A stretch of 64,000 bases of DNA, from assembly GCA_040376705.1 (NCBI GenBank), contig JBEIQE010000001.1:58193-122192 (forward strand), written 5' to 3'. Source of the stretch: Micavibrio sp. GTDB lineage: Bacteria; Pseudomonadota; Alphaproteobacteria; UBA2400. This document shows, in pieces, positions 18,300 to 64,000 of the stretch; the stretch's first letter is position 1; each line of letters starts with the position of its first letter. Both the position numbers and the translations under genes were made by a program. The notes under the pieces were generated by a model. That model was not told the origin of the DNA. It made no database searches and saw only the letters and a program-made list of their open reading frames with translations.

Positions 18300-19843
18300 T
18301 TATATTGATGCCTTATAAGTGTTGTGCCGGCTGGCAGCGTCTTCTGCCATGCCATGAGGGCTTTTTCAAGCCGCTCGGCCTCAGCTGGATTGGCGAGATA
18401 AAGACTTACATAATTGTAGGCAACATTAACGTGTGGCCGGTTGAAGCTGAAATCTGCAACCTTGACCCAGCTGTCAGGCAGCTGTCCTGTAAACCAGGGG
18501 TCATAAATAATAAACAGGCTTAGATTATATCTGTTTGCATAGTCGTCCAGCTCTGCCGGATCCCAGCGATTACCATGCACGCGCAGCTGTCGCACTTCCT
18601 CAGAGCCGAGGCCGTAAATATCGTAAATCGGATAGGGGCTTTGCCAGCTTAGATAACCTATGTCGTTTGCACCAACTGGGTCTTGCCAAAAATCGCGTAC
18701 CAGCCGCGTGAATTGTACCTGCTGTAGATAAATATCCTGACTGGCATAAGGGGTTTTAAGCGTTGTCCAGAAGCTGCTGTGATAACTGGCAACAAAAACA
18801 ATCAGCCACAGTAGCCGGGAAATTGCATTGAACTCTATGCGAGCGATAGTTGGGCGCAGCAAATACATCAATACGATGAAGCTGAACGCGAGCAGATAGC
18901 TTTGGTAACGATCGCCCCATACAATTTTTCCCCCAATAAAATGAGCAATAATGCAGATAAACGCCAGTGCCACGATGCGATTGGCATGTTTGCCTGGCGC
19001 GAACAGCAGAAGTGCTGAGATAATAAGTAATATCCAGCTTCGTGGCTGAATCAGGTTATTGCGGATACGATCAAGAATACTGATGATTGGAGTGTCTATG
19101 TTGTTTACGCCGGTTTTTATCAGAATTGAGGCCGCTACCATGGGCAAGCCAGATGAATGCATATAAGCGGCGTGAATAAGGTGGACGCCCATCTCTATCC
19201 CGCCAACTATTAGGGCTGACATCCTGTATTGTGTGGTGAGCAGCCAGAGCAATGTAATGCCGAACATCGCAAATCCTTCGTAACGGATCATCGGCATCAG
19301 GATGAGTGCTGCCCAGAACCATTTGGGCAGTGGCTTCTTGTCATTCAGGTCGATCAGGCCGGAGAGTACAGCCAGAACAGCTGTAATATGCAGGCTGTGC
19401 TCCATCCCCAGCAGCGGCATACTGTAAAGGTTGCCCGCCAAACCAAGCAGCAAAATTATAGGGGCTGTTGCCCACGCGGGATAAAGAGTGATGAGGTTAA
19501 GCTGGGCCGAGATGCGGCAGAGCAGCCATAGGCTGGTTGCAAGTGCCAGCAGGTTAAGTACAAGTGGGGCAAACACCAAGTCGGCAAAGGGTGCCAGAAG
19601 CCACGGATATATAAGTGAGGATGAGGCTGCTGCCGGAATACCTGCCGTTGTGCCATATTGCCCCGGCAAGAGGCTGGCGATGGCCAGATGGATATAGGCA
19701 TCGTCAACCGCATAAGTGAAATGCCCGTCAGTCAGGTACAGGCTGCAACCCACAAGAACGGCAATAACCAGGCCCGAGAGGGCAAGCGTTTGGGCGTAAA
19801 TACGGGCAGAAGGCATGACGGCACATATAGCTGAGAGCGCCAT
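18296..19843 (-). CDS. Multi-pass membrane protein with C-terminal soluble domain, paralog B (GT-C-like?)
   Basis: 515 aa. It aligns along its full length with paralog A (FTYAVDDAYIHLAIASLLPGQYGTTAGIPAAASS...ANPAEAERLEKAL). Confidence 0.6.
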   Translation of the reverse strand: MALSAICAVMPSARIYAQTLALSGLVIAVLVGCSLYLTDGHFTYAVDDAYIHLAIASLLPGQYGTTAGIPAAASSSLIYPWLLAPFADLVFAPLVLNLLALATSLWLLCRISAQLNLITLYPAWATAPIILLLGLAGNLYSMPLLGMEHSLHITAVLAVLSGLIDLNDKKPLPKWFWAALILMPMIRYEGFAMFGITLLWLLTTQYRMSALIVGGIEMGVHLIHAAYMHSSGLPMVAASILIKTGVNNIDTPIISILDRIRNNLIQPRSWILLIISALLLFAPGKHANRIVALAFICIIAHFIGGKIVWGDRYQSYLLAFSFIVLMYLLRPTIARIEFNAISRLLWLIVFVASYHSSFWTTLKTPYASQDIYLQQVQFTRLVRDFWQDPVGANDIGYLSWQSPYPIYDIYGLGSEEVRQLRVHGNRWDPAELDDYANRYNLSLFIIYDPWFTGQLPDSWVKVADFSFNRPHVNVAYNYVSLYLANPAEAERLEKALMAWQKTLPAGTTLIRHQYK

Positions 19844-21734: not shown

Positions 21735-22658
21735 TTAAGGGGCAGGGTGCGTTAGCGCTTTGGGGTCGAAATACTCGGGCAGCACGCGGCGTAATTGCTG
21801 CTGGCGCAGCGTGAGGCGCTCAATATCAGTGGTAAAATTCTGTGTCCACTGCGCATAGGGCTGCAGGCGTGCAGCCAGCTGCTGCATGCGGCTCTGCGGG
21901 TAATGCTCAATTGCGGTAACAGCGGCTTCAACATAAGGCGCGATTTTATCTGGCGGCAGGGTGAACAGCGCCCAGCGCTGGTCCTGGTCGAGTGCGGTTG
22001 GAATGCGATCTGGCGGGTCGATATAGAAATTCACTTTATCGAGGTCGACGCCATACATTTGCGTATAGCGGCCCTGTGCACCCCGTGCGCCCAGTACAAT
22101 GCTGCCACTGTGGCGGTCATAATTACGCATCCAGATATCGGCTACGCTCAGCGCGGCAAAGGCGGGGGCCAGCTCAGGGTTCTCCTGCAGGAACACAGGG
22201 TAGTGCCGGTCGACCATCATCAGGCTGCACCTGCCGCCTGTGCATACCTCATCAATCGACTTGGCATTTTCATAGGCTACAAGGCTGATGAGAGCATTCG
22301 GCACATCAGGGCGCTGCGGGTTTGTTGCCATAAGCGCTGCTGGAGCATGCGGCAGGCGCAGGTCTTGCAGGATGTCGCTAAAGAATTTCTCACGCAGCAG
22401 GCTGCCGCTGGGCTTATAGCTCTCGCTGTTACAGAAATGATCAGGTTTGAGGTAGCCTATAGCTGTCTCGCTGGCCCTGTATTGGTGCCAGGATTTATAG
22501 CGCGAAGGGCCGATTATTTCGGTAAAACGCTGCGTGATGACTTCCCCGCTCAGGCGGTCAGCCTCCTGCTCAATCGCTACGCTAAAGCTGCGCAGCTCGC
22601 TTAAGCGCGCTACAGCAGCGTTAAAAGCCGGTGAGGGAGCTTTTTTGAAAGCGAGCAT
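21735..22658 (-). CDS. Hypothetical protein (308 aa)
   Basis: The ORF track extends to 23057, but that region overlaps the convergent kinase gene. The internal Met MLAFKK at 22658 is the likely start. There is a Y-D-R-H-S-G-S motif. Confidence 0.5.
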   Translation of the reverse strand: MLAFKKAPSPAFNAAVARLSELRSFSVAIEQEADRLSGEVITQRFTEIIGPSRYKSWHQYRASETAIGYLKPDHFCNSESYKPSGSLLREKFFSDILQDLRLPHAPAALMATNPQRPDVPNALISLVAYENAKSIDEVCTGGRCSLMMVDRHYPVFLQENPELAPAFAALSVADIWMRNYDRHSGSIVLGARGAQGRYTQMYGVDLDKVNFYIDPPDRIPTALDQDQRWALFTLPPDKIAPYVEAAVTAIEHYPQSRMQQLAARLQPYAQWTQNFTTDIERLTLRQQQLRRVLPEYFDPKALTHPAP

Positions 22659-22788
22659 GTCGCGAGGATAGCGACTCCGCGCCTTGAATTTCAAGCGATT
22701 AGAGTAAATCTTTATTAACCATAACCTGCCCAAATGCACAGGGAATTGAAGTCGATTCCTTTTTGACGGGAATTGGCAGAGGGAATTT

Positions 22789-25410
22789 ATGGACGAGAGC
22801 AACAAACCAGCACCCGATAACAAGCCGATGGTAAACGAAATTCCGTTCGCTGTGCCGGCTGTTGTCGTGCCCGAAGTGCTGGTTGCGGTGCAGACGATTG
22901 AAGAGCTCAAGTCCACCACGGCAGGGGTAAAGCCCAGCCGCGTGTTGCTGTTCTCGGGTGGGGTAATTCTCGCTACCGCCATGGCGGGCCTGTTTGTGGC
23001 CTTGGGCGGCAAGAATTTTGGTCTTGAGGTGGACGTACCGGTTATTGCCTCGGTCATGGCGGGTCTGGCGAGCTTCTCGGCGCTGGTGCTGCTGATGGTC
23101 GATCGCTACCAATCCCAGCTTGAGCGCGAACGCGCCCTGATGGTCGAGACAATTGACGAAGGCCTCACTGGCCGCTTCATCACCGGCCCCAATGGCGAGC
23201 TGGTCTTTGCCAATCAGGCGTTCTGGCGGCAGCTGGCCCCATTACCTGAAGGCGCGGACCGCACTAAACCTGAGGCCGTACTGATGAGCTACTTCGCCCG
23301 TGACCCGGGTAGGGATGCTGACTTCAAGCGCGTATCGCAGCAGGCACATGCCGGTCAGTTCAGCGCGTGCGAATTGTTCCTGCGCGATGCTGCAGGCGTA
23401 ACCCATTGCTATCTGCTCGAGGGTTGGCCCTCAGCCAACTACAAGGGCTATGTAAACTGGCGCCTTGAAGACATTACCCCGCGCCTGCAGGTGCAAGAGG
23501 CCATTCAGCGCGAGCAGGCCCGCTGGGCTGATTTTATGGACCATGCGCCGGTTGGTTTCTACTCGGCCGATGCCGAGGGCAAGTTCATCTTCGCCAATTC
23601 GACATTGGCGCGCTGGTTGGGCAGCAATGCCCGCGAAGTGATGGATGGCCTGCGCCTGCATGATGTGATGGTGAAAGCCCCGCTCGATGGCACCAAGTTT
23701 GATATTACGGTTGAGGGCGGCGAGTTCCAGCAGGGCGAATTCACCCTGCGTGGCCCGGGTGGCCGCCAGTTCCAGGCACTGATTGCGCAGACTGTTGATA
23801 AAAGCCGTGAAGGGCTTATCCGCACCCGCGCTGTGGTGCACGATCTTACCGCCGAGCGTGAATGGCAAAGCGCCCTGCAAGAGAGCCAGGCGCGCTTCCG
23901 CCGCTTCTTTGAAGAAAGCCCGATTGGTGTGGCGCTGGTGGCCGAAGGCGGCATGCTGGCGGAGTGCAACCCGGCCTTCCTGAAGATGATTGGTTCGGAT
24001 GCCGCGCATATTCTGGCCCAGCCGCTCGACCGCTTTGTGATTGGTGCGCAGGGTGGGCTTGAGCAGAACCTGGCCCGCGTTGCCTCAGGCGAAGTAACCG
24101 GCATGACGCAAGAAGTGAAGCTGAAGGGCAGTGCCGATCGCGAAATCATGGCACAGCTCTACATTCGCCGCCTTGAGGCAGATGATGTAACCGGCGCGAA
24201 GCTTATTCTGCACTTCATCGATTTGTCTGAGCAGAAGAACCTTGAAGCGCGCTTTGCCCAGTCGCAGAAGATGCAGGCCATTGGCCAGCTGGCGGGCGGT
24301 GTGGCGCACGATTTCAACAACCTCCTTACTGCCATGATCGGTTTCTGCGATCTACTGCTCCTGCGTCACAAGCCGGGCGATGCTTCGTTTGCCGATATCA
24401 TGCAGATCAAGCAGAATGCCAATCGCGCAGCCGGCCTTGTGCGTCAGCTGCTGGCTTTCTCGCGTCAGCAGACACTGCAGCCACGCGTGCTGAACCTTAC
24501 CGATGTGCTGGTTGAACTCTCGAACCTGCTGCGCCGCCTGATTGGCGAGAATATTCAGCTCAACATGCAGCATGGCCGCGAATTGGGCCTCGTGAAAGCC
24601 GATCAGGGCCAGATCGAGCAGGTCATCATCAATATGGCGGTAAACGCGCGCGATGCCATGCCCGCGGGCGGTAAACTCTCCATCACTACCAGCAACTTTG
24701 CGCTCAAGGCACCGCTGCGCCGCGAGCACGATGAAGTGCCGCCGGGTGAGTGGATTGTGACCGAAATATCGGATACCGGTACCGGCATTCCGGCCGATAT
24801 CATTGGCCGTATTTTTGATCCGTTCTTCTCGACCAAAGAAGTGGGCAAGGGCACAGGCTTGGGCCTCTCTACCTGCTACGGTATTGTAAAGCAGACCGGT
24901 GGCTTTGTGTTCGTGGACAGCGAAATGGGCCGCGGCACCAAGTTTACGGTTTACTTGCCGCGCTACACCCGCACGGCGGATGAAATTGCTGAAGTGCAGA
25001 AGCAGGAAACAGCAGCGCAGATTTCGCCCGACCTGACCGGCGCTGGCGTGATCATGCTGATTGAAGATGAAGATGCCGTACGCATGTTCGCGTCGCGTGC
25101 GCTCAAGAACAAGGGTTATACAGTGGTTGAGGCCCGCTCGGGCGACCATGCGCTTGAAGTACTCAAGACCTATACCGGCAAAATCGACCTCATCGTGTCA
25201 GACGTTATGATGCCGGGTACCGATGGCCCGACCACGCTGAAGGAAATTCGCCGCAGCCTGCCCACCATCAAGGCCATTTTCATTTCGGGTTACTCGGAAG
25301 AGCGCCTGAAAGAAAGCTTCGAGACCGGCGAGGCGGTACACTTCCTGCCCAAGCCATTCTCGCTCAAGCAATTGGCCGAGAAGGTGAAAGAAGTTCTGCG
25401 TGAAGGCTGA
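22789..25410 (+). CDS. Hybrid sensor histidine kinase/response regulator, CckA-like (TM - PAS x2-3 - HisKA - HATPase - REC)
   Basis: An N-terminal TM pair is followed by PAS-like segments. The H-box is HDFNNLLTAMIGF, the G-box is GTGLGLS, and the C-terminal receiver is LIVSDVMMPGTDG. Total length is 873 aa. Confidence 0.85.
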   Translation: MDESNKPAPDNKPMVNEIPFAVPAVVVPEVLVAVQTIEELKSTTAGVKPSRVLLFSGGVILATAMAGLFVALGGKNFGLEVDVPVIASVMAGLASFSALVLLMVDRYQSQLERERALMVETIDEGLTGRFITGPNGELVFANQAFWRQLAPLPEGADRTKPEAVLMSYFARDPGRDADFKRVSQQAHAGQFSACELFLRDAAGVTHCYLLEGWPSANYKGYVNWRLEDITPRLQVQEAIQREQARWADFMDHAPVGFYSADAEGKFIFANSTLARWLGSNAREVMDGLRLHDVMVKAPLDGTKFDITVEGGEFQQGEFTLRGPGGRQFQALIAQTVDKSREGLIRTRAVVHDLTAEREWQSALQESQARFRRFFEESPIGVALVAEGGMLAECNPAFLKMIGSDAAHILAQPLDRFVIGAQGGLEQNLARVASGEVTGMTQEVKLKGSADREIMAQLYIRRLEADDVTGAKLILHFIDLSEQKNLEARFAQSQKMQAIGQLAGGVAHDFNNLLTAMIGFCDLLLLRHKPGDASFADIMQIKQNANRAAGLVRQLLAFSRQQTLQPRVLNLTDVLVELSNLLRRLIGENIQLNMQHGRELGLVKADQGQIEQVIINMAVNARDAMPAGGKLSITTSNFALKAPLRREHDEVPPGEWIVTEISDTGTGIPADIIGRIFDPFFSTKEVGKGTGLGLSTCYGIVKQTGGFVFVDSEMGRGTKFTVYLPRYTRTADEIAEVQKQETAAQISPDLTGAGVIMLIEDEDAVRMFASRALKNKGYTVVEARSGDHALEVLKTYTGKIDLIVSDVMMPGTDGPTTLKEIRRSLPTIKAIFISGYSEERLKESFETGEAVHFLPKPFSLKQLAEKVKEVLREG

Positions 25411-26132: not shown

Positions 26133-27422
26133 TTAGCCCATTAAATCAGTGTGTTGGTTTGATATGCCGGGCCAGGGCGCGGCTCCCGGCAAACGGCTTT
26201 TTATAGCGCTTACCGCACGCTGCCACCATTTGGGATCGGGGCTGTTTTCAAGCTGCGTGGCGGCGAAGGTCACTTCCATGAAGTAGTCGGGGATATGGCT
26301 TGAGTGAATAACCGCGATTGACGGAATATCCTTAGGCGCAGCGGCGCGGGCCATGGCGATGGTCGGTGCGTCGCCTTCTGGCAGGGTGCAGCCTACCATC
26401 TTGAATGCATCGCCTTGCCTGACCATCTCGAAGGTAGCCATAAGGGCGGGCTCAGCCTGCTCATCTGCCTTGAACAGATAGACATGCCGCATGCCATCGC
26501 TCAGTTTGGCAGGGCGGTTGAACATATGGGTCACACTGAGCGGCAATAGCTCTTCAAGTGTGGCCTGCTTCTGCCGCGCAATATCGCGAATGCGGTCAGC
26601 CCGCACATCAAAATTTTCCTGCGCCTTGGCGATAATGTTATTGGTAACCTCTTCGCTCATCACCGTGGGAGGGGCGGTCTCATCTACCGGGTTATCGGGG
26701 TTATCATAGGTCAGTAGCAGGGGCGGCTGGGCGATGCCAATAGCTACCGCCGTGCGGCGTTGATCGACTGAATTGATAATCACTTCATCGCGCGTATAGG
26801 TAATCGCGAGTTGGGCGGCCTGAGCATATTCATCCGGATACAGAACATGGCCTTTAGTAGTTTCAGCGCCAGTATAGCCTGCGCAAATCCATGCAACGCT
26901 TTCGAGCAGGCTCAGGTAGGTGAGCTTGCTGCCCAGCTGGTCGCGGTAGGTATTACGCAGATCAGTATTCTTAGGGTCAGCTTTATAAAGTTTTGCGATT
27001 AACTCGGTATGGCCTTCAACATAGCCGCTCATGGCCTTAGCTTGCTCAGCCATTCTCTCAAAATTATCATCTCCGTCTTCAAGTAGCGAGTTAAGGTCGA
27101 AACGACCGCCACTCAGGCTGATGATGGCTGTGCCGTTAGTGCTTACAAACTCCGGCTTCTCGGCTTTGAACTTGGCAAGGCGCTCGTCGTACAGCGGGCG
27201 CAGCGCATCGTTGAGCAGAATGGTGGTGCAGTCTTTCACCAGATTACGGGTACGTTCGGCAGCACGCTGAATTTCAGCACCAAGGCGGATCATTTTGTCC
27301 GGGTGGTTTTCGGCCAAACGCTGGCGTGCAGTTGCGTGGATCTCGTCCTTACTGGCGTCGGGTGTAAGCCCAAGGAACGCATAGCGGTCGAAAATATAGT
27401 CAACGCCTTCAACTGGATCCAT
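26133..27422 (-). CDS. J-domain (DnaJ N-terminal domain) protein with roughly 350-aa unknown C-terminal region
   Basis: The N-terminus YAFLGLTPDASKDEIHATARQRLAENHPDK has the HPD tripeptide of J-domains. There is no zinc-finger or DnaJ C-terminal domain. Length is 429 aa. Confidence 0.65.
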   Translation of the reverse strand: MDPVEGVDYIFDRYAFLGLTPDASKDEIHATARQRLAENHPDKMIRLGAEIQRAAERTRNLVKDCTTILLNDALRPLYDERLAKFKAEKPEFVSTNGTAIISLSGGRFDLNSLLEDGDDNFERMAEQAKAMSGYVEGHTELIAKLYKADPKNTDLRNTYRDQLGSKLTYLSLLESVAWICAGYTGAETTKGHVLYPDEYAQAAQLAITYTRDEVIINSVDQRRTAVAIGIAQPPLLLTYDNPDNPVDETAPPTVMSEEVTNNIIAKAQENFDVRADRIRDIARQKQATLEELLPLSVTHMFNRPAKLSDGMRHVYLFKADEQAEPALMATFEMVRQGDAFKMVGCTLPEGDAPTIAMARAAAPKDIPSIAVIHSSHIPDYFMEVTFAATQLENSPDPKWWQRAVSAIKSRLPGAAPWPGISNQHTDLMG

Positions 27423-27546
27423 GGCATCCCCCCTGTAAAGGCAAGCAGGCTAGCACTAGCGCTGGCGCTTTTGCACTGGTTTTCCGGCAATTTCAGCTGC
27501 TTGTTTAATGGGTAATTCCCCGCTAGGCTCGGGTTAATAAATAAGT

Positions 27547-28581
27547 ATGGGCAGGGTATATATGGGGCAATCACGGGACAGGCGTAATCCGCATGGCTGG
27601 CTTGGCGCGCTTGCGGGTTTTAACGGCCAGCAACAGCGCTGGGCTGCGGCAGCATTGGCGCATCTCGAGACACAATATAATAACGACCCACACAATATAC
27701 TTAAACTGGCCGAGGCGGCGCCTGCTGGCCTGACCGGCGAGATCCAACTGCGCCAGCTGGGGCGGGATTATGCAGCTTTCTGGTTGCTGCAGCGGTTTGA
27801 TTACAAGCAGGACCCAACGCCCGAACAGCAACAGGCCTTGTGGGAGCGCACATTAAGCATCCCCACCTTCCGCACGTTCGATTTGGTGCATGCGGCCATG
27901 GGGTGGGATATAACCACTCTGCGCGTTGGTGTGTCTCGGGATACTGCCGCCATGCGTTTTGCGGCCAGCCCGTTTGCTGATGAGCTGGAAGAGCTGTTGG
28001 CCTATGTGCCGGTGGCCGATAAAAAGGCTTATCTAGCCCTGCGCAACAGGCAGGGGTTTACTGCTGTGCATACGAGCGCGCATGCCAGCACACTGGCCGT
28101 GCTGGCGGCGCAGGGCGCCAGCCTTGAGGCCACTACGCGCATAGAGGTTGCAGGCTGCAAGATGGATGTGACTATAGCCCACCTCGCGGTACTCAATGGT
28201 CGCGTGGGCCAGACGCTTGAGCTGGTGCGCCTGCAGCCAGAGTTGTTCAAGCCAGACAAGCTGCTTGATTACACGCCGATGGAAGCCGGGCAGATGCAGC
28301 TTGAAGACATGCTCGAGGGCTATGGCCGCAAGCAGTTCAGCCAGCTTATCATCAGCGCGTTTACGGCCATTGCCAGCAAGGGCGAGCTGAATGCTGTTAG
28401 CCAGGTACCTGCCGAACAGCAGGATGCACTGGCCCAGCATTACGCCAATATTGCGCGCTGTGTGAATATCCCTGCGCATGTGCAGGGCAAGCCGCTGCCT
28501 TACCCCGAGCATGCGGATGTGCTGGGCCAGCTTGTTAAAACAGCACCGGTCAAGCCGCCAGAGAAAATGGGGCTGAATTGA
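27547..28581 (+). CDS. Ankyrin-repeat protein, paralog 1 (shared novel N-terminal domain plus ANK repeats)
   Basis: ANK-like repeats are GFTAVHTSAHASTLAVLAAQGASLE and TIAHLAVLNGR. The N-terminal domain NPHGWLGALAGFNGQ...DYAAFWLLQRF is shared with the next two ORFs. Confidence 0.65.
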   Translation: MGRVYMGQSRDRRNPHGWLGALAGFNGQQQRWAAAALAHLETQYNNDPHNILKLAEAAPAGLTGEIQLRQLGRDYAAFWLLQRFDYKQDPTPEQQQALWERTLSIPTFRTFDLVHAAMGWDITTLRVGVSRDTAAMRFAASPFADELEELLAYVPVADKKAYLALRNRQGFTAVHTSAHASTLAVLAAQGASLEATTRIEVAGCKMDVTIAHLAVLNGRVGQTLELVRLQPELFKPDKLLDYTPMEAGQMQLEDMLEGYGRKQFSQLIISAFTAIASKGELNAVSQVPAEQQDALAQHYANIARCVNIPAHVQGKPLPYPEHADVLGQLVKTAPVKPPEKMGLN

Positions 28582-29519
28582 GCATGAACCAGCGCAAACC
28601 CACCGGCAGCTTTAACAACCCCTATGGCCGCCTTGGCGAAATGGCAGGCTTTAAGGGTAAGCCAGCTGCATGGCAGGCTGCAGCCGAAGCGCGGCTGATG
28701 GAGCGCTATTATAGCGACCCGGATGGTATCATTTATGAAACCAAACGGGCAGCACTCGCCGCCAGTAAGAGCGTAGAAGGCGCGCAGGAAGCGCTGGATG
28801 AGCTGCGGCAGGATTATGCCGCCTATTGGCTAATTAAACGCCTGAAGGGCGAGCCGCTGCCGGATAAAGATGAGCAGGCGCACCACTGGAAATCGGCCTT
28901 CATCGCTGCGCCAGACCGCCAGCTGGCACTCACGCTTGCTGTTGCCGGATTTGAGACGGTGGATATGCGGGTGGACGATGACCCGATACTCAGCTCTTTT
29001 GTGTTTTCGGCCACCGCCAATGAGCTTGAGGATTTCTTGCAGCTTATGCCGGCTGATAAGCGCGCCGAGCATATCAACATCAAAGGCGATGCTGATATGA
29101 CACCCATGCACATCGCCAGCTTTGCGGCAGGGCCGGGTAGCTTGGCGGTTTTACAGCAGCATGGTGGCGACCTGACGGCGCTTATGACCATCACCATGGG
29201 GACGGGTGAAATTATAAGGGGAAATCCTGCGCATCTGGCGGTACTGAACGGTCGGCCGGATATGACTGCCGAACTGATGGCGCTCGACCGCGGCCTGTTT
29301 ACCCGCTACGTGCCTGAAATAAAGTATACGCCGGATGAAATGGTTGAGGCCTGTGCCAAGGTCACCAACAATATCAATAAGGAAATTCGCAAGGCGGCTA
29401 ATATTGCTGCGTATGCAATCGACCGGCCGGTACCATTCCCCGAAGTAGGCTGGATCCTCAAGCAGCTGACATCGGCCACGGCACCACGTGCGCGGGTTAT
29501 GGGGCATACACTCAATTAG
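28578..29519 (+). CDS. Ankyrin-repeat protein, paralog 2
   Basis: MTPMHIASFAAGPGSLAVLQQHGGDL and NPAHLAVLNGRPD are ANK-like. The N-terminus is NPYGRLGEMAGFKGK...DYAAYWLIKRL. It overlaps paralog 1 by 4 bp. Confidence 0.65.
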   Translation: MSMNQRKPTGSFNNPYGRLGEMAGFKGKPAAWQAAAEARLMERYYSDPDGIIYETKRAALAASKSVEGAQEALDELRQDYAAYWLIKRLKGEPLPDKDEQAHHWKSAFIAAPDRQLALTLAVAGFETVDMRVDDDPILSSFVFSATANELEDFLQLMPADKRAEHINIKGDADMTPMHIASFAAGPGSLAVLQQHGGDLTALMTITMGTGEIIRGNPAHLAVLNGRPDMTAELMALDRGLFTRYVPEIKYTPDEMVEACAKVTNNINKEIRKAANIAAYAIDRPVPFPEVGWILKQLTSATAPRARVMGHTLN

Positions 29520-29581
29520 GGCTTGCACTGCCGCGTGCAGCCGCTAGCCTCATAGCCAAATATAAAAGGGAGTATGGGATT

Positions 29582-30616
29582 ATGGCCAAACGTAAAAGCA
29601 AATCGCTGCTGGGTATCTATGCATCGCTCACCTCGAGCAGCCCTATCGCGCGCGAACAGGCCTTAACCCGCATCAACGGTATGTATGATGGCGATGGCCA
29701 GCGTATTGCCTATGCCTCCGAGTGTGCTTCTAAAAAGATTTTCTTTTACGGTAACAGTGAGCACGGTATGCAGCCCGACCCCAATGTCGTGCGCGCCGAC
29801 TTTGCCGCATGGCTGGTGATCAACAAGGTCAACCCGGGGCCGGACAGCAAACCGCTAAGTGCTGAAGCCGAATGGAAGTTGATGGAGCGTATCAGCAAGA
29901 TCGACGACAAGTTGCTAACGCTCATGGCGCTTGAGGCCGGTATTTCACCAATGCCACCCGCCAGAGCTGAGCTTAAGGAGACCAGCGCGCTGCAGCTGTT
30001 CTGCGAGAGTGCCAAGGCGGCCGAGGTGCATGCGTTTCTGGCGCTGGTGCCCGAGGCTACGCGCACCGAGGTCGTCAATTATATCGATGGCAAAGGCCGC
30101 AACGCCGTGCACTGCGCCACCCATAACCCAAATGTAGGCGTTATAACCGAGCTGAAGGGGGCGGGAGCAGATCTGGACGTGGTCTGGCAGGCCAGACTCG
30201 GCAAGCGCGAGCCTAAGCGCGCGGCGCATATGGCCGTGCTGGCGGGTAATCTGGGCGTAGCGACTGAGCTGGGCGGCTTGGCCCTGCACCAGTTTACCGC
30301 ATCGCCCGCATGCCCTGTGACTCCGTATGAGATGGGGATGCTGCGTATTCAGAATAATTTGTCCGAAGTGCCGCGCCCTGTGCCGATGAATGCTAAAGCC
30401 GAACACGCCAAGAACCCGATGCAGATGCTACCCCCCACCAACCCGCAAGAGGCGGACGAGGCCAAAGAGCGCGCCCTGCGCCTGCAGCGTATTATGGAAG
30501 CTACGGATATTGCGGCTGGCTTTTTGGGTATAAGCGCACCATTTGGTAACACAGGCAAGGTTGAGGCTGCGCAGCGTGCTGTTGGCGCCAAAAGCAACCA
30601 GCATGGTCTTAACTAA
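29582..30616 (+). CDS. Ankyrin-repeat protein, paralog 3
   Basis: GRNAVHCATHNPNVGVITELKGAGADLD and AAHMAVLAGNLG are ANK-like. The N-terminal region is more diverged (DFAAWLVINKV). Confidence 0.6.
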   Translation: MAKRKSKSLLGIYASLTSSSPIAREQALTRINGMYDGDGQRIAYASECASKKIFFYGNSEHGMQPDPNVVRADFAAWLVINKVNPGPDSKPLSAEAEWKLMERISKIDDKLLTLMALEAGISPMPPARAELKETSALQLFCESAKAAEVHAFLALVPEATRTEVVNYIDGKGRNAVHCATHNPNVGVITELKGAGADLDVVWQARLGKREPKRAAHMAVLAGNLGVATELGGLALHQFTASPACPVTPYEMGMLRIQNNLSEVPRPVPMNAKAEHAKNPMQMLPPTNPQEADEAKERALRLQRIMEATDIAAGFLGISAPFGNTGKVEAAQRAVGAKSNQHGLN

Positions 30617-34048: not shown

Positions 34049-35512
34049 TTAGTTAGGCTTGGTGAACTCATAAATCGCGGTTATGCCCGTGCGATAGCGC
34101 TCATGAATGGTATATCCGGCAGATAGCAGGCCATTTTTGATATCCATATCGTTATACCAGTCATCCGCAAATACGCCCCAAAGCGCGCCGGAGGTATGGG
34201 CGATTTCAGCAATCGCAGCTGGCCTTGCAGTACCACAGCTTGGCGCTGTTATGCGGCTATGCACCTGTGCAGTCCATTGAGTTTTAAGGCCGACGATATC
34301 AACCAGTTTAAAGCGGGTGCTAGCATGCGCAATGTAACCGGCATCATGCACCAGCAGAGCGTTATTTGCTGGAATATGCTGGTTCGCCCATGTAATAGCG
34401 CTTTTATTGTCATCTCCACGGCGCAGTACATGCGGTGTGATGGCAAAGGTAAGGCTGCAGATAATACCAATCGCGCAAACTAGCAGACTGCTGTGCTGAA
34501 TGTTTTTAGTGGCCTTTGGGCTGGTAGCCATAACAGTCAGGAAGCAGAAAATCCATGCAGGGATCAGTATGGGGCTGTAACGGCCGGTATAGAAATTGAG
34601 CAGTAATGCCGAGGGAAAAATAAGGCCATAGGTAATCAAGAAGGCTGTTGTAAAAACAATTGAGCAGATAAAAAGTTTCTGTCGGCTCGGGAAAAACAGG
34701 AACAGGCAGATAGGCATGCTGATGAGCATCAGTTCAATCAGCCCCTTGAGGCTGATACCTGCTTTTTGTAATAGCGGCAGGCAGCTTTGCGCATAGAACA
34801 TCGACTTGGCGGTCCATGTCTGCGGTAGCCACAGACCAGTTTGTGCATGCACAAACAATACTGGCGGTAGCGCTGCCGCCAGCCCCAACAGGCCCATAAA
34901 TATGGGGGCAGGGAGTTGCATAACCTTATGCTGCCTCAGCTCATATGCCTTAAACAGAAAAGCCGGAATAGCCAGTGCCGCCAGCTCGATGCGCACATGG
35001 ACAGCAAGGCCGCACAAGGCCGCCAGCACAAAGGCGCTGCTGGTACGTTTATCCATAAGTAAAACCAGGAGCCACAGGCTGGTGCCCAGAGCGAGGCCGG
35101 TTTCGAGGCCGTTGAGCAGGTGTAAAGGCATGATGCCGACCAGCAGGAACATCGCCAGCGCATAGGGGGCAGCTTTGCCAAGCTTGAGCTGCTGCGTTAC
35201 CGCAAAGGCAGCTGCAGCATAAACCCAGCAACCAAGTATCGCGGCACAGAGCAGGGCAGGCTCGGTAGGCATGACTCTGGAGAAGATAGCAACCACCAGC
35301 AGGTGGATAGTACTGGTTGATCCGCTGATGGATGGCGTGCCGTAAAGTGGATCGACGGTGGTGCCTTGTAGCAGGAGGAAGGCATTACGGCCTGTTATAT
35401 AAGCATCATCCAGAAAGAAAGCTGGATGAATCAGGCCTGCAAAGGCCAGTGCCATAGCGGCTAATGCGCTTAGAGCGATAGCTGTTTGCATGCTGCACAG
35501 GGATAATTTCAT
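34049..35512 (-). CDS. Multi-pass membrane protein with C-terminal soluble domain, paralog C (same family as 16743-19843)
   Basis: PAFFLDDAYITGRNAFLL and the C-terminal DAGYIAHASTRFKLVDIVGLKT align with paralogs A and B. The ORF track runs to 35635. The likely start is the internal Met (MKLSL/MQTAIAL), near 35512-35491. Confidence 0.55.
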   Translation of the reverse strand: MKLSLCSMQTAIALSALAAMALAFAGLIHPAFFLDDAYITGRNAFLLLQGTTVDPLYGTPSISGSTSTIHLLVVAIFSRVMPTEPALLCAAILGCWVYAAAAFAVTQQLKLGKAAPYALAMFLLVGIMPLHLLNGLETGLALGTSLWLLVLLMDKRTSSAFVLAALCGLAVHVRIELAALAIPAFLFKAYELRQHKVMQLPAPIFMGLLGLAAALPPVLFVHAQTGLWLPQTWTAKSMFYAQSCLPLLQKAGISLKGLIELMLISMPICLFLFFPSRQKLFICSIVFTTAFLITYGLIFPSALLLNFYTGRYSPILIPAWIFCFLTVMATSPKATKNIQHSSLLVCAIGIICSLTFAITPHVLRRGDDNKSAITWANQHIPANNALLVHDAGYIAHASTRFKLVDIVGLKTQWTAQVHSRITAPSCGTARPAAIAEIAHTSGALWGVFADDWYNDMDIKNGLLSAGYTIHERYRTGITAIYEFTKPN

Positions 35513-35751
35513 AGCGCGGTATAGCTCTTGAAGGGAAACGCTAGTTGCTGACCGCACAGCATGATATTTTTGTCGTAGTTGAAATTCGCTTGGGCCATAG
35601 TCTTGCTTTGGTAGCAGCTTTTTGCCCCGGGCCATGCGGCCCAGCTGATGAATGTTTTGAACGGGCCGTTTGGTCTCATGCCTGCAAGTTAGCGGGTGTA
35701 AGGTAATTTGACAGCCCTTTTTTATTGGCGGTTTTGGGTTATGTTCTGGCT

Positions 35752-60827: not shown

Positions 60828-61103
60828 ATGACTACTGAAAACAACAATCCGACTGCCAAGCCAGTTACCCCTATCGTGGCCGCACCTGTGCAGCCCAAAG
60901 ATGACAAGTCGGCTGCAGTAAGTGCCGAAATGCAGAAGAGCTGGGACAAGCTGTCGCCTGAAGATATGAAGCTGTATGAGACAAGCCCTGACAAGTTCTT
61001 CGGCGTACTGAAAGACAAGCAGGGTGTGACCCGCGAGAATGCTGAAAAGCGCCTCACCGAGATCAAGAACAGCTGCGGTTGTAGTACAGAAAAAGCTGCT
61101 TAA
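60828..61103 (+). CDS. CsbD-like diverged paralog 2 (C-terminal CGC motif)
   Basis: KSWDKLSPEDMKLYETSPDKFFGVLKDKQGVTRENAEKRLTEIKNSCGCS. Confidence 0.5.
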   Translation: MTTENNNPTAKPVTPIVAAPVQPKDDKSAAVSAEMQKSWDKLSPEDMKLYETSPDKFFGVLKDKQGVTRENAEKRLTEIKNSCGCSTEKAA

Positions 61104-61352: not shown

Positions 61353-61500
61353 TCCAATCTGTGATTGTATATAATACATATGTCGGCAATTTTATGGCGT
61401 TTTTGCAGTGGGGCATCTCTCCCGTCTGGAAAAGTGATGCGCATGCGCGCAAGATGATCATATCACTTGTTTGCACAGCAGCAGTTCTGAGGAGGGTGCT

Positions 61501-61749
61501 ATGGCAGCAGGAAATAATACTCTGGTCGCAAAAGCCACGAGCTGGCCCGACCGCTACGCCGACATATGCATAGAAATGAAAGAGCTGTGGGACAAACTCA
61601 GCAATGAGGATGTGCGCCTTTATCACATCGAGCCTGAGCAGTTTTTCATCCGCCTTAAAGAGAAGCAGGGTGTGAGCCGCGAAGTTGCCGAGCGCTGTAT
61701 GGCGCAGATCAAGGCCGAGTGTGGCTGCGATAATGGCCGGTTTGCCTGA
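61501..61749 (+). CDS. CsbD-like diverged paralog 3 (C-terminal CGC motif)
   Basis: KELWDKLSNEDVRLYHIEPEQFFIRLKEKQGVSREVAERCMAQIKAECGCD. Start refined to MAAGNN with a gaggagg RBS. Confidence 0.5.
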   Translation: MAAGNNTLVAKATSWPDRYADICIEMKELWDKLSNEDVRLYHIEPEQFFIRLKEKQGVSREVAERCMAQIKAECGCDNGRFA

Positions 61750-61761: not shown

Positions 61762-61800
61762 AGCAAAAAGCCTGCCCGCAGGAGCGGACAGGCTTTTTTG
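61762..61800. terminator. Bidirectional terminator between CsbD-like gene and AlaRS-like gene
   Basis: aaaaagcctgcccgcaggagcggacaggcttttttg. Confidence 0.65.
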
Positions 61801-61818: not shown

Positions 61819-63699
61819 TTACGAAGCGGTGAGTACCGCCTTGATACGGCGTACGCCAACCGAGCTGCTCTCTTCCTTCTGGATGGCGAACTTGCCCAGC
61901 TTGCCGATTTCGCTGGTGTTGGCCACATGCGGGCCACCGCACAGCTCGCGGCTCCAGATCTTGCCAGTTGCATCCTTGAACTGGAAGACCTTCACAACAT
62001 CGGGGTACTTCTCCCAGAAACTGCCCTCAACGCCTTCGGCCTTGGCCTGTTCCTTGGGCATTTCAACAATGGTCATCTCGGCATTGGCGTTGATGGCTTC
62101 ATTCACATAAATCTCAACTGCCTTTTTCTGTTCTTCAGTCATCTTTTCGTGATGGCTGAAGTCGAAGCGGGCGCGCTCAGCCGTAATATTGCTACCCTTC
62201 TGGTGCACGTGATCGCCCAAAATACTGCGCAGACCAGCCAGCATGAGGTGGGTAGCAGTGTGCAGGGCTGTAGTGACTTCGCTATGGTCGGCCAAGCCAC
62301 CCTTGAACTTGCCGGCAGCAGCGGTACGGCTCAGCTCGGCATGCTCTTTAGCGGCAATATTAAAGGCCTCAGGCTCAAGCATTTGCTTGCCGTTTTCCTC
62401 AAGGAATTCTTCGGTCAGCTCACGCGGGAAGCCATAAGTCTCGTAGAAGTGGAAGGCATCCTTGCCACTGATGGTACCATGTTGCTCGATATGGCGTTTC
62501 ATCTCACGCTCACCGCTCTGCAGGGTCTTCTGGAACTGTGCTTCTTCAGCAGCAATGGTGGCCAGAATATCTTTTTTGTTGAGCGCCATTTCCGGGTAGG
62601 CGGTGGCGTCATCGATATAGATTTCGGCAATCTGGGTCATGAACGCGCCGTTAAAGCCCAGCTTGCGGCCCACGCGAATGGCGCGGCGCATGAGGCGGCG
62701 GGTTACATACCCCGCATCAATATTGGCAGGCTTGGCGCCATCATTAATCAGGAAGGTGGCGGCGCGGGTATGGTCCAGCACGATGCGGAAGTTCTTGGTC
62801 TCCTCAGCATACTTCTTGCCAGTCAGCTCTTCGATTTTGGCAATCGGGCGGGTAAAGAAGGCACTGAGGTAAATATCCGAATTGCCGTTCATGGCGGCGG
62901 CTACGCGCTCGAGACCTCCACCGTAGTCGATGTTCGGGCGCGGCAGGGGCATGAAGCCGTTCTCGGTCTTCTTGTGTGACATGAACACGTTATTACCGAT
63001 TTCAAGGAAACGCGGTGTGTCGGTCGCCGGATGGTCGAGCGGGTCGCCAGCCGGGTTAAAGTCGTAGAACATTTCGCTGTCAGGGCCACCGGGTTCACCA
63101 ACCGGCATCTTTTCGGGGCGGCCAGCGCGGCTCCACCAGTTTTCGCCTTCATCATACATAAAGATACGGCCACCGCGCGATACACCATACTTCCAGGGTT
63201 CACGCTCAACCACGGGGTCGATGCCCACGCTCTTGAACAGGTCAGTCCAGATGGCAACCGCTTCGTCATCCGGTGCGATGCCCATGTCCTTGTTGCCCTG
63301 ATAAACGCTGACGTAGAAATTCTTGGGGTCGATGCCCAGCTCTTCAATCTGCCACTTCCACATGAAAGTAACCTGTTGGCGCTTGAAGGTGGCCGGATCG
63401 GCACCAAACGACCAGCGGCCAATCATCTCGAAGAAAGTGAGGTGCGAGTTATCGCCCACTTCGTTGATGTCGCCAGTGCGCAGGCACTTCTGGGTATTGG
63501 AGATATCGTTGCCCGACGGATGCTTTTCACCCAGCAGATACGGGATCATCGGCTGCATGCCGCTGCCGGTAAACAGGGTGGTGGGGTCGTTCTCGGGCAG
63601 CAGGCTGGACGACGGAACATTGACCGAGCCTTGCGCGGTCATGAAATCGAGGAACGATTTGCGCAGAAGGTTAGGGTCGTTCTTGATGCTCTTGCTCAT
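61819..63699 (-). CDS. Alanyl-tRNA synthetase-like protein with catalytic and editing domains but no C-Ala domain (about 626 aa)
   Basis: Class II AlaRS motifs are TLFTGSGMQ, HLTFFEMIGRWSFG and GGGLERV. The editing site is HTATHL...HHE...CGGPHV. The ORF terminates right after the editing domain at a clean terminator. Start refined to MSKSIK. ORF track start 63777. Confidence 0.8.
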   Translation of the reverse strand: MSKSIKNDPNLLRKSFLDFMTAQGSVNVPSSSLLPENDPTTLFTGSGMQPMIPYLLGEKHPSGNDISNTQKCLRTGDINEVGDNSHLTFFEMIGRWSFGADPATFKRQQVTFMWKWQIEELGIDPKNFYVSVYQGNKDMGIAPDDEAVAIWTDLFKSVGIDPVVEREPWKYGVSRGGRIFMYDEGENWWSRAGRPEKMPVGEPGGPDSEMFYDFNPAGDPLDHPATDTPRFLEIGNNVFMSHKKTENGFMPLPRPNIDYGGGLERVAAAMNGNSDIYLSAFFTRPIAKIEELTGKKYAEETKNFRIVLDHTRAATFLINDGAKPANIDAGYVTRRLMRRAIRVGRKLGFNGAFMTQIAEIYIDDATAYPEMALNKKDILATIAAEEAQFQKTLQSGEREMKRHIEQHGTISGKDAFHFYETYGFPRELTEEFLEENGKQMLEPEAFNIAAKEHAELSRTAAAGKFKGGLADHSEVTTALHTATHLMLAGLRSILGDHVHQKGSNITAERARFDFSHHEKMTEEQKKAVEIYVNEAINANAEMTIVEMPKEQAKAEGVEGSFWEKYPDVVKVFQFKDATGKIWSRELCGGPHVANTSEIGKLGKFAIQKEESSSVGVRRIKAVLTAS

Positions 63700-63889
63700 A
63701 ATCCGGGCTCGTCTCTCTGGTGCAGATGTGGGGCGCTGTGCGCGGTTTCCCCTGTGATATAGGGGATTTTCGGGCAAGATTCAATTGCCATAGGTAGCGC
63801 TGCGGCAGGGACGCGGGGCAGGCGGGCTGCCCTTGCAGAATGGGCGAAAACAGAGCAAAATGCGGCCTCATTCATTCACAGAGGTAAAT

Positions 63890-64000
63890 ATGACGGTAGA
63901 CCTGAAGGCACGTATTGCAGAGCTCACATCGCTGGAGCAGGCCGAACAGCTCTATCCTGCGCGTAATCTGCCTGCCGGTGCCGAAGTGGTGCGCGTCGCG
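63890..64000 (+). CDS. 5' partial CDS, possibly phenylalanine--tRNA ligase alpha subunit N-terminus
   Basis: MTVDLKARIAELTSLEQAEQLY...AEVVRVA resembles the PheS N-terminal helix ending in VRV-x-x-LGKKG. It runs off the window. Confidence 0.3.
   Translation, partial: MTVDLKARIAELTSLEQAEQLYPARNLPAGAEVVRVA

What the first reader, a model, noticed from the sequence alone, without database searches (positions are those of the whole stretch)
61819..63777. Alanyl-tRNA synthetase-like gene lacking the C-Ala domain, located at the edge of the stress island
The ORF has clear class-II AlaRS catalytic motifs and a complete editing domain (HTATHL...CGGPHV). It ends about 150 residues after the editing histidines, at a clean bidirectional terminator, so it is not a frameshift. 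Canonical bacterial AlaRS is about 870-880 aa, with a C-terminal C-Ala oligomerisation and tRNA-binding domain. The catalytic core also shows divergent sequences (HLTFFEMIGRWSFG, K-x-L-R-T-G-D). This is either a second, stress- or antibiotic-related AlaRS paralog or an unusually minimal primary enzyme.
Basis: partly seen in the sequence, partly recalled or inferred. Interest (0 to 1): 0.55.

Follow-up and report, generated by a model that had tools for sequence, protein, structure and literature searches.

The report
Compact alanyl-tRNA synthetase (small-AlaRS) gene
This is an intact gene for an already described compact type of alanyl-tRNA synthetase ("small-AlaRS") that lacks two domains of the standard enzyme; in this group of alphaproteobacteria it appears to have replaced the standard gene, so it is probably the ordinary housekeeping enzyme here, not a stress or resistance extra.

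Summary
A minus-strand ORF at 61819-63777 (likely start ATG 63702, 627 aa) encodes an AlaRS with intact catalytic, tRNA-recognition and editing-core regions. It stops at a hairpin terminator. It lacks C-Ala, the helical linker and the beta-barrel before the editing core.

The architecture is known. The protein passes NCBIfam NF002436 (a 595-position "alanine--tRNA ligase" model), and a 2023 bioRxiv preprint calls this form "small-AlaRS". About 60 homologues end at 614-631 aa, so the length is typical of the family.

Related alphaproteobacterial genomes share a conserved locus, UDG-SLT-alaS-NDK. Some carry a canonical alaS there and others carry the small type. One carries a chimera: a small core fused to a C-Ala about 80% identical to the neighbours' canonical C-Ala. 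Another has C-Ala as a separate downstream ORF. This indicates in-place displacement of the canonical gene followed by loss of C-Ala. The window's gene has native codon composition. It is therefore most likely the organism's primary alaS, though I could not search the whole genome.

In Firmicutes the same family spreads as a 2.3-kb cassette behind an alanine T-box. More distant relatives sit in antibiotic-like gene clusters on plasmids. A resistance role is possible elsewhere in the family but is not supported here.

The parts
61819..63702 (-). small-AlaRS coding sequence (627 aa plus stop codon 61819-61821), counted from the likely ATG start
   Evidence: ORF list. Pfam PF01411 + PF07973. NCBIfam NF002436 at 578 bits against a cutoff of 529, over the full length. 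Homologues align from residue 2-10.
63703..63777 (-). 5' extension of the mechanical ORF back to a TTG; probably untranslated leader, not coding
   Evidence: No homologue aligns to these 25 residues. The conserved promoter-like -35/-10 site overlaps it.
62893..63702 (-). Class II catalytic domain, about residues 1-270. Carries motif 2 (KCLRTGD...HLTFFEMIGRWSFG), R75, W189, N237, D259 and G261.
   Evidence: Alignment to A. aeolicus AlaRS 1riq. Invariant columns. Model and Foldseek matches to 1riq, 3hxu and 9jc7, TM 0.82-0.86.
62332..62892 (-). Helical tRNA-recognition (acceptor-stem, ATL) domain, about residues 271-457. Carries N327 (= E. coli N303) and E421 (in place of E. coli D400).
62281..62331 (-). 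Short flexible linker (residues 458-474) in place of the beta-barrel domain of canonical AlaRS
   Evidence: pLDDT is below 50 for residues 458-471. S. meliloti residues 436-563 have no counterpart.
61822..62280 (-). Editing core (residues 475-627), AlaX-S-like. Zinc motifs HTATH 481-485 (62248-62262) and CGGPH 588-592 (61927-61941).
   Evidence: PF07973. Foldseek: AlaX-S structures 1v7o and 1wnu are covered over their whole length (TM about 0.8), while AlaX-M is only half covered. 43% identical to S. meliloti AlaRS residues 564-708.
61774..61793 (.). G+C-rich hairpin flanked by an A-run and a T-run, between the two convergent genes; likely terminator for alaS and possibly for the CsbD-like gene
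   Evidence: Sequence. Terminator scan hit on the minus strand. On the plus strand the stem has one C-A mismatch.
63756..63784 (-). Promoter-like TTGAAT-N17-TATATC upstream of alaS, conserved in the 94%-identical relative L064
   Evidence: Alignment of the intergenic regions. The strict consensus scan did not flag it. Inferred, not shown.
63705..63720 (-). Purine-rich ribosome-binding region (CCAGAGAGACGAGCC) just upstream of the ATG, identical in L064
   Evidence: 16 of 16 identical.
63890..64000 (+). Start of a divergently transcribed GluRS-type gene, cut by the window end. Context only, not part of alaS.
   Evidence: The N-terminus matches the 543-aa tRNA-synt_1c + Anticodon_2 gene next to alaS in L064-L067.

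Best explanation
The gene encodes a functional, compact alanyl-tRNA synthetase of the known "small-AlaRS" type. It has a catalytic domain, an acceptor-stem recognition domain, a short flexible linker and an AlaX-S-like editing core. It has no beta-barrel, no helical linker and no C-Ala domain.

Inferred mechanism: the N-terminal 457 residues activate alanine and charge tRNA-Ala. They select the tRNA through the acceptor stem (G3:U70) alone, without the elbow contact that C-Ala provides. The tethered editing core hydrolyses Ser- or Gly-tRNA-Ala. Without C-Ala the enzyme is probably a monomer.

Evolution, supported by comparison of loci: in an ancestor of this Micavibrio-like alphaproteobacterial group a foreign small-AlaRS core replaced the native canonical alaS in place. 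The native C-Ala at first remained fused. It was then split off and lost in most descendants, including this one, and the gene later moved next to a GluRS-type gene.

The window's gene is therefore most likely the organism's only, housekeeping alaS. It is a lineage-typical short form and has no connection to the neighbouring stress genes.
For: **Identity and integrity**
- NF002436 scores 578 bits against a cutoff of 529, end to end. PF01411 and PF07973 are found.
- Residues equivalent to E. coli R69, W170, N212, D235, G237 and N303, and the HxxxH/CxxxH zinc motifs, are kept and invariant in 40 homologues.
- The AlphaFold model has mean pLDDT 85. Its two halves match AlaRS catalytic fragments and AlaX-S.

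**Known architecture**
- The bioRxiv preprint 10.1101/2023.05.29.542759 defines small-AlaRS with exactly these three domains.

**Function as AlaRS**
- In six of six Firmicutes loci tested, the homologue (63% identical) is preceded by a T-box leader (112-128 bits, gathering score 93) whose specifier reads GAA-GCA-G, an alanine codon.

**Lineage-typical length**
- ORFs end at 614-631 aa in nearly all of 63 loci.

**Displacement in place**
- At the shared locus UDG-SLT-alaS-NDK, loci L079, L080 and L082 carry a canonical alaS. It is 57-64% identical to S. meliloti AlaRS and 29-32% identical to the small type.
- L002, L004, L044, L074, L075, L076 and L078 carry the small type downstream of the same UDG/SLT genes; NDK was also found downstream in L044, L075, L076 and L078.
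- P0077 (locus L075) is a chimera. Its core is 34-35% identical to both S. meliloti and Bacillus AlaRS. Its C-Ala is 61% identical to S. meliloti's, 37% to Bacillus's, and 78% identical to the C-Ala of L082 (75% to those of L079 and L080).
- L072, which groups close to the window, has C-Ala as a separate 132-aa ORF that overlaps the alaS stop codon.

**Residence in the genome**
- The gene's GC3 is 0.70, against 0.71 for Lon and 0.70 for CckA.
- In the tree the window groups with L064, L001 and L072 inside a deep alphaproteobacterial clade.
- A GluRS-type gene and a class Ia synthetase gene recur near alaS in L064 and L072.
Against: - The source genome could not be searched, so a canonical alaS elsewhere in it is not excluded.
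- The window's own locus is not the UDG-SLT-NDK locus, and its flanks share no synteny with the GTDB relatives. Displacement is therefore inferred for the lineage, not seen in this genome.
- The family transfers readily between lineages and acts as an extra copy in other bacteria.
- The tree is a simple neighbour-joining tree with midpoint rooting and no support values.
- The D400-equivalent residue is E. The motif-2 loop is 4 residues shorter. Other active-site neighbours differ (EIWN to EIGN, DTGMG to DYGGG). I found no biochemical study of any small-AlaRS in the papers I searched. Activity, tRNA selectivity and editing are therefore inferred.
Confidence: 0.7

Rival explanations
1. It is an accessory second AlaRS that coexists with a canonical alaS elsewhere in the genome. 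It would be kept as a back-up under alanine or tRNA stress, or because it is insensitive to a natural AlaRS inhibitor.
For: - In Firmicutes the same subfamily moves as a 2.3-kb promoter + Ala T-box + gene cassette. Proteins are 91-97% identical and leaders 94-100% identical across Bacilli and Clostridia. This is the pattern of inducible second synthetases.
- Those genera are expected, from general knowledge, to have a canonical alaS as well. I did not check this.
- Relatives 43% identical lie on Exiguobacterium and Peribacillus plasmids. Their neighbours are AsnA-like, ATP-grasp, methyltransferase, MFS and S66 (MccF-like) peptidase genes.
- Copies also occur in Rhodobacteraceae isolates.
Against: - In the window's own alphaproteobacterial group the small type occupies the ancestral alaS position, and a chimera retains the native C-Ala.
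- Codon composition is native.
- The window has no T-box, and no biosynthetic or immunity genes were recognised beside the gene.
- The neighbouring CsbD-like genes are not conserved neighbours.
Confidence: 0.22
2. It is not a translation enzyme. Instead it supplies or consumes Ala-tRNA or alanyl-adenylate for a secondary-metabolite or cell-envelope pathway, or acts only as an editing factor.
For: Distant family members lie inside biosynthetic-looking plasmid clusters.
Against: - All catalytic, tRNA-recognition and editing residues are under strong conservation.
- There are no pathway genes nearby, and no neighbour is conserved across loci.
- It is the gene found at the alaS locus in relatives.
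- Homologues are controlled by an Ala T-box.
Confidence: 0.04
3. It is a truncated or decaying remnant of a canonical alaS, that is, a pseudogene or an assembly artefact.
For: It is about 250 residues shorter than canonical AlaRS. A few Paenibacillus copies look broken (L056, L059, L060).
Against: - The frame is open and ends at a terminator.
- The length is shared by about 60 homologues.
- The protein is only 35% identical to canonical AlaRS, yet 60% mean column identity holds within the family.
- The structure is predicted with confidence.
Confidence: 0.01

Closest known systems
small-AlaRS (bioRxiv 10.1101/2023.05.29.542759) / NCBIfam NF002436 (PRK01584) "alanine--tRNA ligase"
   Same: - The three-domain architecture is the same: catalytic, acceptor-stem recognition and editing, with no cradle-loop barrel and no C-Ala.
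- The protein passes the NF002436 cutoff over the full length.
   Different: - The preprint reports the type from CPR bacteria and some archaeal groups. Here it is in a Micavibrio-like alphaproteobacterium.
- The window's subfamily (about 620 aa, with a roughly 30-aa insertion in the catalytic domain) scores only 534-578 bits. The Firmicutes plasmid type scores 916-922 and a CPR member scores 750.
Canonical bacterial AlaRS (TIGR00344; E. coli, S. meliloti, A. aeolicus)
   Same: - It shares the class IIc catalytic fold, the alanine-pocket residues, the Asn of the G3:U70 recognition pair and the zinc-dependent editing core.
- Identity is 35% over the catalytic and recognition domains and 43% over the editing core.
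   Different: - It lacks the barrel (S. meliloti residues 436-563) and the helical linker plus C-Ala (709-887).
- The motif-2 loop is shorter, and D400 is replaced by E.
- The TIGR00344 score sits exactly at the cutoff (457.7 against 457.05) and covers only positions 2-431 of 847.
Naturally shortened AlaRS: Tupanvirus mini-AlaRS and C. elegans mitochondrial AlaRS (PMC10036535, PMC8887476)
   Same: These are natural AlaRS enzymes without a functional C-Ala. The Tupanvirus enzyme still charges tRNA-Ala through the acceptor stem and replaces yeast AlaRS in vivo. This shows the proposed mechanism is feasible.
   Different: The viral enzyme also lacks the editing domain and the conserved N/D pair. 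The window's protein keeps the editing core and the Asn.
AlaX-S free-standing editing proteins (P. horikoshii PH0574; 1v7o, 1wnu)
   Same: The C-terminal 150 residues adopt the same barrel-less editing fold (TM about 0.8 over the whole AlaX-S chain).
   Different: Here the fold is fused to a synthetase. By sequence it is closest to bacterial AlaRS editing domains (43% identity).
Inducible or resistant second synthetases of Firmicutes (T-box-controlled extra copies such as mupirocin-resistant IleRS2; recalled from general knowledge and mentioned in PMC2494555)
   Same: The Firmicutes members of this family have the same layout: a T-box of the cognate amino acid in front of a divergent, horizontally acquired synthetase.
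   Different: I know of no inhibitor or resistance phenotype for small-AlaRS. The window's copy has no T-box and appears to be a replacement, not an addition.

Membership tests
small-AlaRS / NF002436 (PRK01584) | Scores above the curated NF002436 cutoff over the full length | tested here: met
   578.1 bits against a cutoff of 529; residues 11-625 match profile positions 4-593 of 595.
small-AlaRS / NF002436 (PRK01584) | Catalytic, acceptor-stem recognition (ATL) and editing domains all present | tested here: met
   Pfam; PDB alignment; model and Foldseek.
small-AlaRS / NF002436 (PRK01584) | No cradle-loop barrel between the recognition and editing domains | tested here: met
   A 16-residue, low-confidence linker stands in place of S. 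meliloti residues 436-563. AlaX-S is matched over its whole length and AlaX-M only over half.
small-AlaRS / NF002436 (PRK01584) | No C-Ala (DHHA1) domain | tested here: met
   The protein ends 35 residues after CGGPH. There is no PF02272 hit. tblastn with three C-Ala queries finds nothing in the window.
Functional class II alanyl-tRNA synthetase | Alanine and ATP pocket residues (E. coli R69, W170, N212, D235, G237) | tested here: met
   R75, W189, N237, D259 and G261 are present and invariant in 40 homologues.
Functional class II alanyl-tRNA synthetase | Asn/Asp pair that reads G3:U70 (E. coli N303, D400) | tested here: inconclusive
   The Asn is kept (N327). The Asp position is an invariant Glu (E421). 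Enzymes that lack both residues still read G3:U70 (PMC10036535).
Functional class II alanyl-tRNA synthetase | Editing-site zinc ligands HxxxH and CxxxH | tested here: met
   H481, H485, C588 and H592 are invariant.
Functional class II alanyl-tRNA synthetase | Charges tRNA-Ala and clears Ser- or Gly-tRNA-Ala | not testable with these tools
   Indirect support only: Ala-specifier T-box leaders precede homologues in Firmicutes.
Canonical bacterial AlaRS (TIGR00344) | Full five-domain architecture including barrel and C-Ala, about 870-890 aa | tested here: not met
   627 aa. The TIGR00344 match covers only profile positions 2-431 of 847, at 457.7 bits against a cutoff of 457.05.
Auxiliary or resistance synthetase paralogue | A housekeeping copy of the same synthetase coexists in the genome | not testable with these tools
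   Only 64 kb of the genome is available, and it holds no other alaS. Relatives show replacement at the alaS locus, not addition.
Auxiliary or resistance synthetase paralogue | Linked to a biosynthetic or immunity cluster, or to starvation-responsive control | tested here: not met
   The window has no T-box or other Rfam element, and the neighbours are unrelated. The feature is met only by relatives in Firmicutes and on plasmids.

The most novel reading that the evidence does not exclude
small-AlaRS may be an inhibitor-insensitive AlaRS that spreads between bacteria as a resistance determinant against a natural alanyl-adenylate-like antibiotic.

- The plasmid clusters in Exiguobacterium and Peribacillus (small-AlaRS with AsnA-like, ATP-grasp, MFS and MccF-like S66 peptidase genes) would be producer loci.
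- The 2.3-kb Ala-T-box cassettes in Paenibacillus and Clostridia would be inducible resistance copies.
- In Micavibrio-like bacteria the insensitive enzyme would have replaced the sensitive canonical one outright.
- The altered motif-2 loop and active-site neighbours (EIGN, DYGGG) would be the basis of insensitivity.
Probability: 0.1. Interest if true: 0.75.

Novelty: new member of a known kind. Interest (0 to 1): 0.38.

Why it matters
AlaRS is usually described as keeping one prototype architecture throughout biology (PMC10036535, PMC8887476), with C-Ala as the main tRNA-binding module. This locus and its relatives show a free-living alphaproteobacterial lineage that most likely lives on an enzyme without C-Ala and without the barrel. 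They also preserve the steps of the change: canonical gene, chimera, split gene, small gene.

That gives a natural series for testing what C-Ala and the barrel contribute to charging and editing. It also documents a clear case of in-place displacement of an essential gene.

For this window the practical conclusion is modest. The gene is most probably the ordinary alaS of its lineage. It should be annotated as alanine--tRNA ligase and not as part of a stress island.

Tried and rejected
- **A canonical alaS in the window.** The 873-aa ORF at 22789-25410 is CckA, not AlaRS. tblastn with the barrel and C-Ala of S. meliloti and Bacillus AlaRS, the P0077 C-Ala and the L072 ORF found nothing in the window.
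- **recA-alaS synteny.** The pairing is confirmed in S. meliloti. No recA occurs in the window or near any small-alaS locus, so this gave no information.
- **Exact look-up of the window protein.** It is not on record. The best match is 94% identical.
- **Synteny with GTDB loci.** There is none around the window's gene. No neighbour is conserved across the family.
- **Free-standing C-Ala proteins.** The C-Ala search returned many proteins of 200 aa or fewer. All four that I inspected on long contigs were pieces of canonical alaS. L082 is split by a scaffold gap of Ns, L080 and L081 by frameshifts, and in L079 an intact 1143-aa ORF was simply not called. I therefore reject the idea of a widespread trans-acting C-Ala. 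Only L072 shows a genuine split.
- **Linking both types to one contig.** I compared contig lengths across the search results and found no coincidence.
- **Literature.** A search for "alaS2" returned only the human ALAS2 gene. Searches on T-box plus paralogue, and on Micavibrio plus synthetase, found nothing relevant.
- **Pseudogene or frameshift.** Rejected.
Full report
**1. What is in the sequence**

The window holds a minus-strand ORF at 61819..63777, 652 aa from a TTG. The likely start is the ATG at 63702, which gives 627 aa.
- Homologues align only from residue 2-10 of that form.
- A 16-nt purine-rich stretch just upstream of the ATG is identical in the 94%-identical relative L064.
- A TTGAAT-N17-TATATC promoter-like site at 63784-63756, also conserved in L064, overlaps the TTG.

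The gene ends 25 bp before a G+C-rich hairpin (61774-61793). The hairpin is flanked by A and T runs and lies between this gene and a convergent CsbD-like gene.

Pfam finds tRNA-synt_2c (residues 13-474) and tRNA_SAD (577-620). HTATH is at 481-485 and CGGPH at 588-592.

**2. Architecture**

An AlphaFold model built on 40 homologues has mean pLDDT 85. The only low-confidence internal segment is residues 458-471.
- Foldseek matches the N-terminal 457 residues to AlaRS catalytic fragments (1riq, 3hxu, 9jc7; TM 0.82-0.86 on the target).
- It matches the last 150 residues to the barrel-less trans-editing protein AlaX-S (1v7o, 1wnu; TM about 0.8 over the whole chain). AlaX-M is covered only by half.
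- Against S. meliloti AlaRS, residues 11-464 align to 5-435 (35% identity) and 481-623 align to 564-708 (43%). S. meliloti residues 436-563 (barrel) and 709-887 (helical linker plus C-Ala) have no counterpart.

So two modules are missing, not one.

The residues equivalent to E. coli R69, W170, N212, D235, G237 and N303, and the four zinc ligands, are present and invariant in the family. The D400 position is an invariant Glu. The motif-2 loop is four residues shorter, EIWN is EIGN, and DTGMG is DYGGG.

**3. The architecture is already known**

- The protein passes NCBIfam NF002436 (PRK01584, a 595-position equivalog named alanine--tRNA ligase) at 578 bits against a cutoff of 529, over the full length. 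It only touches the cutoff of the canonical model TIGR00344.
- A 2023 bioRxiv preprint (10.1101/2023.05.29.542759) describes a subgroup of AlaRS with only catalytic, ATL and editing domains, lacking the cradle-loop barrel and C-Ala. It names the subgroup small-AlaRS and reports it from CPR bacteria and some archaeal groups.
- The experimental AlaRS papers I read still describe one prototype architecture. As natural exceptions they treat the Tupanvirus mini-AlaRS and the C. elegans mitochondrial enzyme.
- I found no biochemical work on small-AlaRS.

**4. Distribution**

- The protein database holds thousands of homologues. The best 120 are 64-94% identical and almost all are 600-640 aa.
- A scan of one genome per species found 63 loci:
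  - MAGs labelled Micavibrio, Bdellovibrionales or Alphaproteobacteria (63-76% identity);
  - Paenibacillus, Neobacillus, Clostridium, Anaeromicropila and Lachnospiraceae (about 63%);
  - Rhodobacteraceae, including cultured Tateyamaria and Palleronia (57-61%);
  - Patescibacteria (45-52%).
- Nearly all of these ORFs stop at 614-631 aa.
- Canonical AlaRS of any phylum is only 36-39% identical.
- A neighbour-joining tree (no support values) makes the roughly 620-aa family monophyletic. Patescibacteria-like sequences are basal. The window sits with L064, L001 and L072 in a deep alphaproteobacterial clade. A very shallow Firmicutes clade is nested beside alphaproteobacterial MAGs.

**5. Evidence that the family acts as AlaRS**

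All six Firmicutes loci tested have a T-box leader (112-128 bits, gathering score 93) directly upstream. The specifier loop reads GAA-GCA-G, an alanine codon followed by the usual purine. These genes are therefore switched on by uncharged tRNA-Ala.

**6. Is the window's gene a second copy or the primary one?**

The whole genome is not available, so I looked for indirect evidence.

*Composition.* The gene's GC3 is 0.70, equal to that of Lon and CckA in the window.

*A conserved locus with two alternative occupants.*
- In many alphaproteobacterial relatives the small alaS lies in a conserved housekeeping neighbourhood. UDG and SLT lie upstream, NDK and a hybrid histidine kinase lie downstream, and rnpA-yidC is nearby. 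This holds for L002, L004, L044 and L073-L078.
- A search with the C-Ala domain of the one fused family member led to three related contigs: L079 (GCA_020638295.1), L080 and L082.
- In these, the same UDG-SLT...NDK-kinase locus carries a canonical alaS. It is 57-64% identical to S. meliloti AlaRS and only 29-32% identical to the small type.
- The flanking genes are about as similar between canonical-type and small-type loci (SLT 42-50%, NDK 74-79%) as between canonical-type loci (SLT 47-58%, NDK 83%).

*Intermediate forms.*
- The fused member, P0077 (L075, 779 aa), is a chimera. Its core is equidistant from S. meliloti and Bacillus AlaRS (34-35%). Its C-Ala is 61% identical to S. meliloti's, 37% to Bacillus's, and 78% identical to the C-Ala of L082 (75% to L079 and L080).
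- Its nearest relatives (82-85% identical) have no C-Ala.
- In L072, on a 1.64-Mb contig and close to the window in the tree, C-Ala is a separate 132-aa ORF. It overlaps the alaS stop codon (TGATGA) and has a degraded glycine-rich motif.

*Reading.* A foreign small-AlaRS core replaced most of the resident alaS in place. The native C-Ala persisted for a time and was then split off and lost. Under this model the small enzyme is the only AlaRS of these genomes.

*The window's own locus.* The gene here has moved. It is transcribed divergently from a GluRS-type gene, as in the 94% relative L064. In L064 a ThrRS gene and a class Ia synthetase gene lie within 10 kb. L072 also has a class Ia synthetase and a GluRS gene nearby.

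I put the probability that the window's gene is the sole, housekeeping alaS at about 0.7.

**7. The rival reading**

The accessory or resistance reading fits other parts of the family.
- The Firmicutes copies are 91-97% identical across Bacilli and Clostridia. Their leaders are 94-100% identical at the DNA level. The shared DNA is only a 2.3-kb promoter + T-box + gene cassette set in unrelated contexts. That indicates recent transfer of an add-on gene. I did not verify that those genomes also hold a canonical alaS.
- More distant members (43% identity, the core of NF002436 at 916-922 bits) sit on an Exiguobacterium plasmid and a Peribacillus plasmid. Around them are AsnA-like, SAM-methyltransferase, ATP-grasp, glycosyltransferase, kinase, MFS and S66 (MccF-like) peptidase genes. 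This looks like a cluster for an aminoacyl-nucleotide antibiotic.
- None of this is present in the window. It has no T-box. The CsbD-like genes beside alaS are not conserved neighbours. The "stress island" position is therefore incidental.

**8. Mechanism**

*Shown:* the domain content, the conserved residues, and alanine T-box control in relatives.

*Inferred:* charging of tRNA-Ala through acceptor-stem recognition alone; editing in cis by the tethered core; a monomeric state. Feasibility rests on published work: C-Ala-less fragments and the viral mini-AlaRS charge acceptor-stem substrates and tRNA-Ala (PMC10036535).

**9. Verdict**

This is a real, intact gene of a known but little-studied kind. 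It is most likely the lineage-typical primary alaS.

New relative to what I found in the literature:
- its presence in Micavibrio-like alphaproteobacteria;
- the displacement series of canonical gene, chimera, split gene and small gene;
- the T-box cassette in Firmicutes.

Interest is moderate.

Noticed in passing
L068 (NZ_CP053558.1, 74644-92404) and L069 (NZ_CP068052.1, 35392-53149): Two Bacillales plasmids carry a 595-aa small-AlaRS inside a cluster of AsnA-like, SAM-methyltransferase, ATP-grasp, glycosyltransferase, deoxynucleoside kinase, phosphotransferase, MFS and S66 (MccF-like) peptidase genes. L069 also has a 386-aa "alanine--tRNA ligase-related protein". It looks like a cluster for an aminoacyl-nucleotide antibiotic, with AlaRS acting in immunity or biosynthesis.
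   Followed up: partly
L010, L015, L017, L019, L020, L022, L045, L047 (about 9560-11884 in each locus): A 2.3-kb cassette (promoter, Ala-specifier T-box, small alaS) is shared at 89-96% DNA identity between Paenibacillus, Neobacillus, Clostridium hydrogenum and Anaeromicropila (79% with a Lachnospiraceae MAG). The homology does not extend into the flanks and no mobile-element genes were seen. How it moves is unexplained.
   Followed up: partly
L079 4686-5245 (GCA_020638295.1, contig JACKIU010000001.1): The canonical alaS of this Rhodospirillales MAG is an intact 1143-aa ORF with an in-frame insertion of about 186 aa in the barrel region. By eye the insertion resembles a GNAT (RimJ/RimL-type) acetyltransferase domain; I ran no domain search on it. 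The source annotation called only the last 143 aa as a protein. In L075 an Acetyltransf_3 gene lies directly downstream of the chimeric alaS.
   Followed up: no
window 63890-64000 (+); L064 1-9807; L072 14650-18773: The neighbourhood is rich in synthetase genes. A GluRS-type gene (543 aa in L064, with an N-terminal extension) is transcribed divergently from alaS. In relatives, a ThrRS gene and an 851-868-aa class Ia synthetase gene lie within 3-10 kb.
   Followed up: partly
window 60828-61103 (+) and 61471-61749 (+): Two paralogous 91-92-aa ORFs share the motif K..WDKLS.ED..LY...P..FF..LK.KQGV.RE.AE. One gives a weak hit to PRK10428, and a CsbD gene sits near alaS in L064. They are not conserved neighbours of alaS.
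   Followed up: partly
window 13391-14902, 16743-19843, 21735-23057, 26133-30616, 34049-35635: Nine ORFs of 313-528 aa in a 22-kb stretch have no Pfam hit at E <= 1e-5. This is an unusual density of unannotatable genes between CckA and Lon, and fits a poorly studied, Micavibrio-like lineage.
   Followed up: no
L056, L059, L060 (Paenibacillus sp. DMB20, P. fonticola, P. rhizoplanae), about 10001-11850: In three Paenibacillus genomes the small-alaS reading frame breaks after 256-354 aligned residues. This points to frameshifted or decaying copies, as expected if the gene is dispensable there.
   Followed up: no
L072 11908-12306: This separate C-Ala ORF overlaps the alaS stop codon (TGATGA). Its glycine-rich motif is degraded (GGAFDGGARDCAQGG in place of GGKGGGGRPDMAQAGG). 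It may be a decaying remnant and not a working trans-acting C-Ala.
   Followed up: partly
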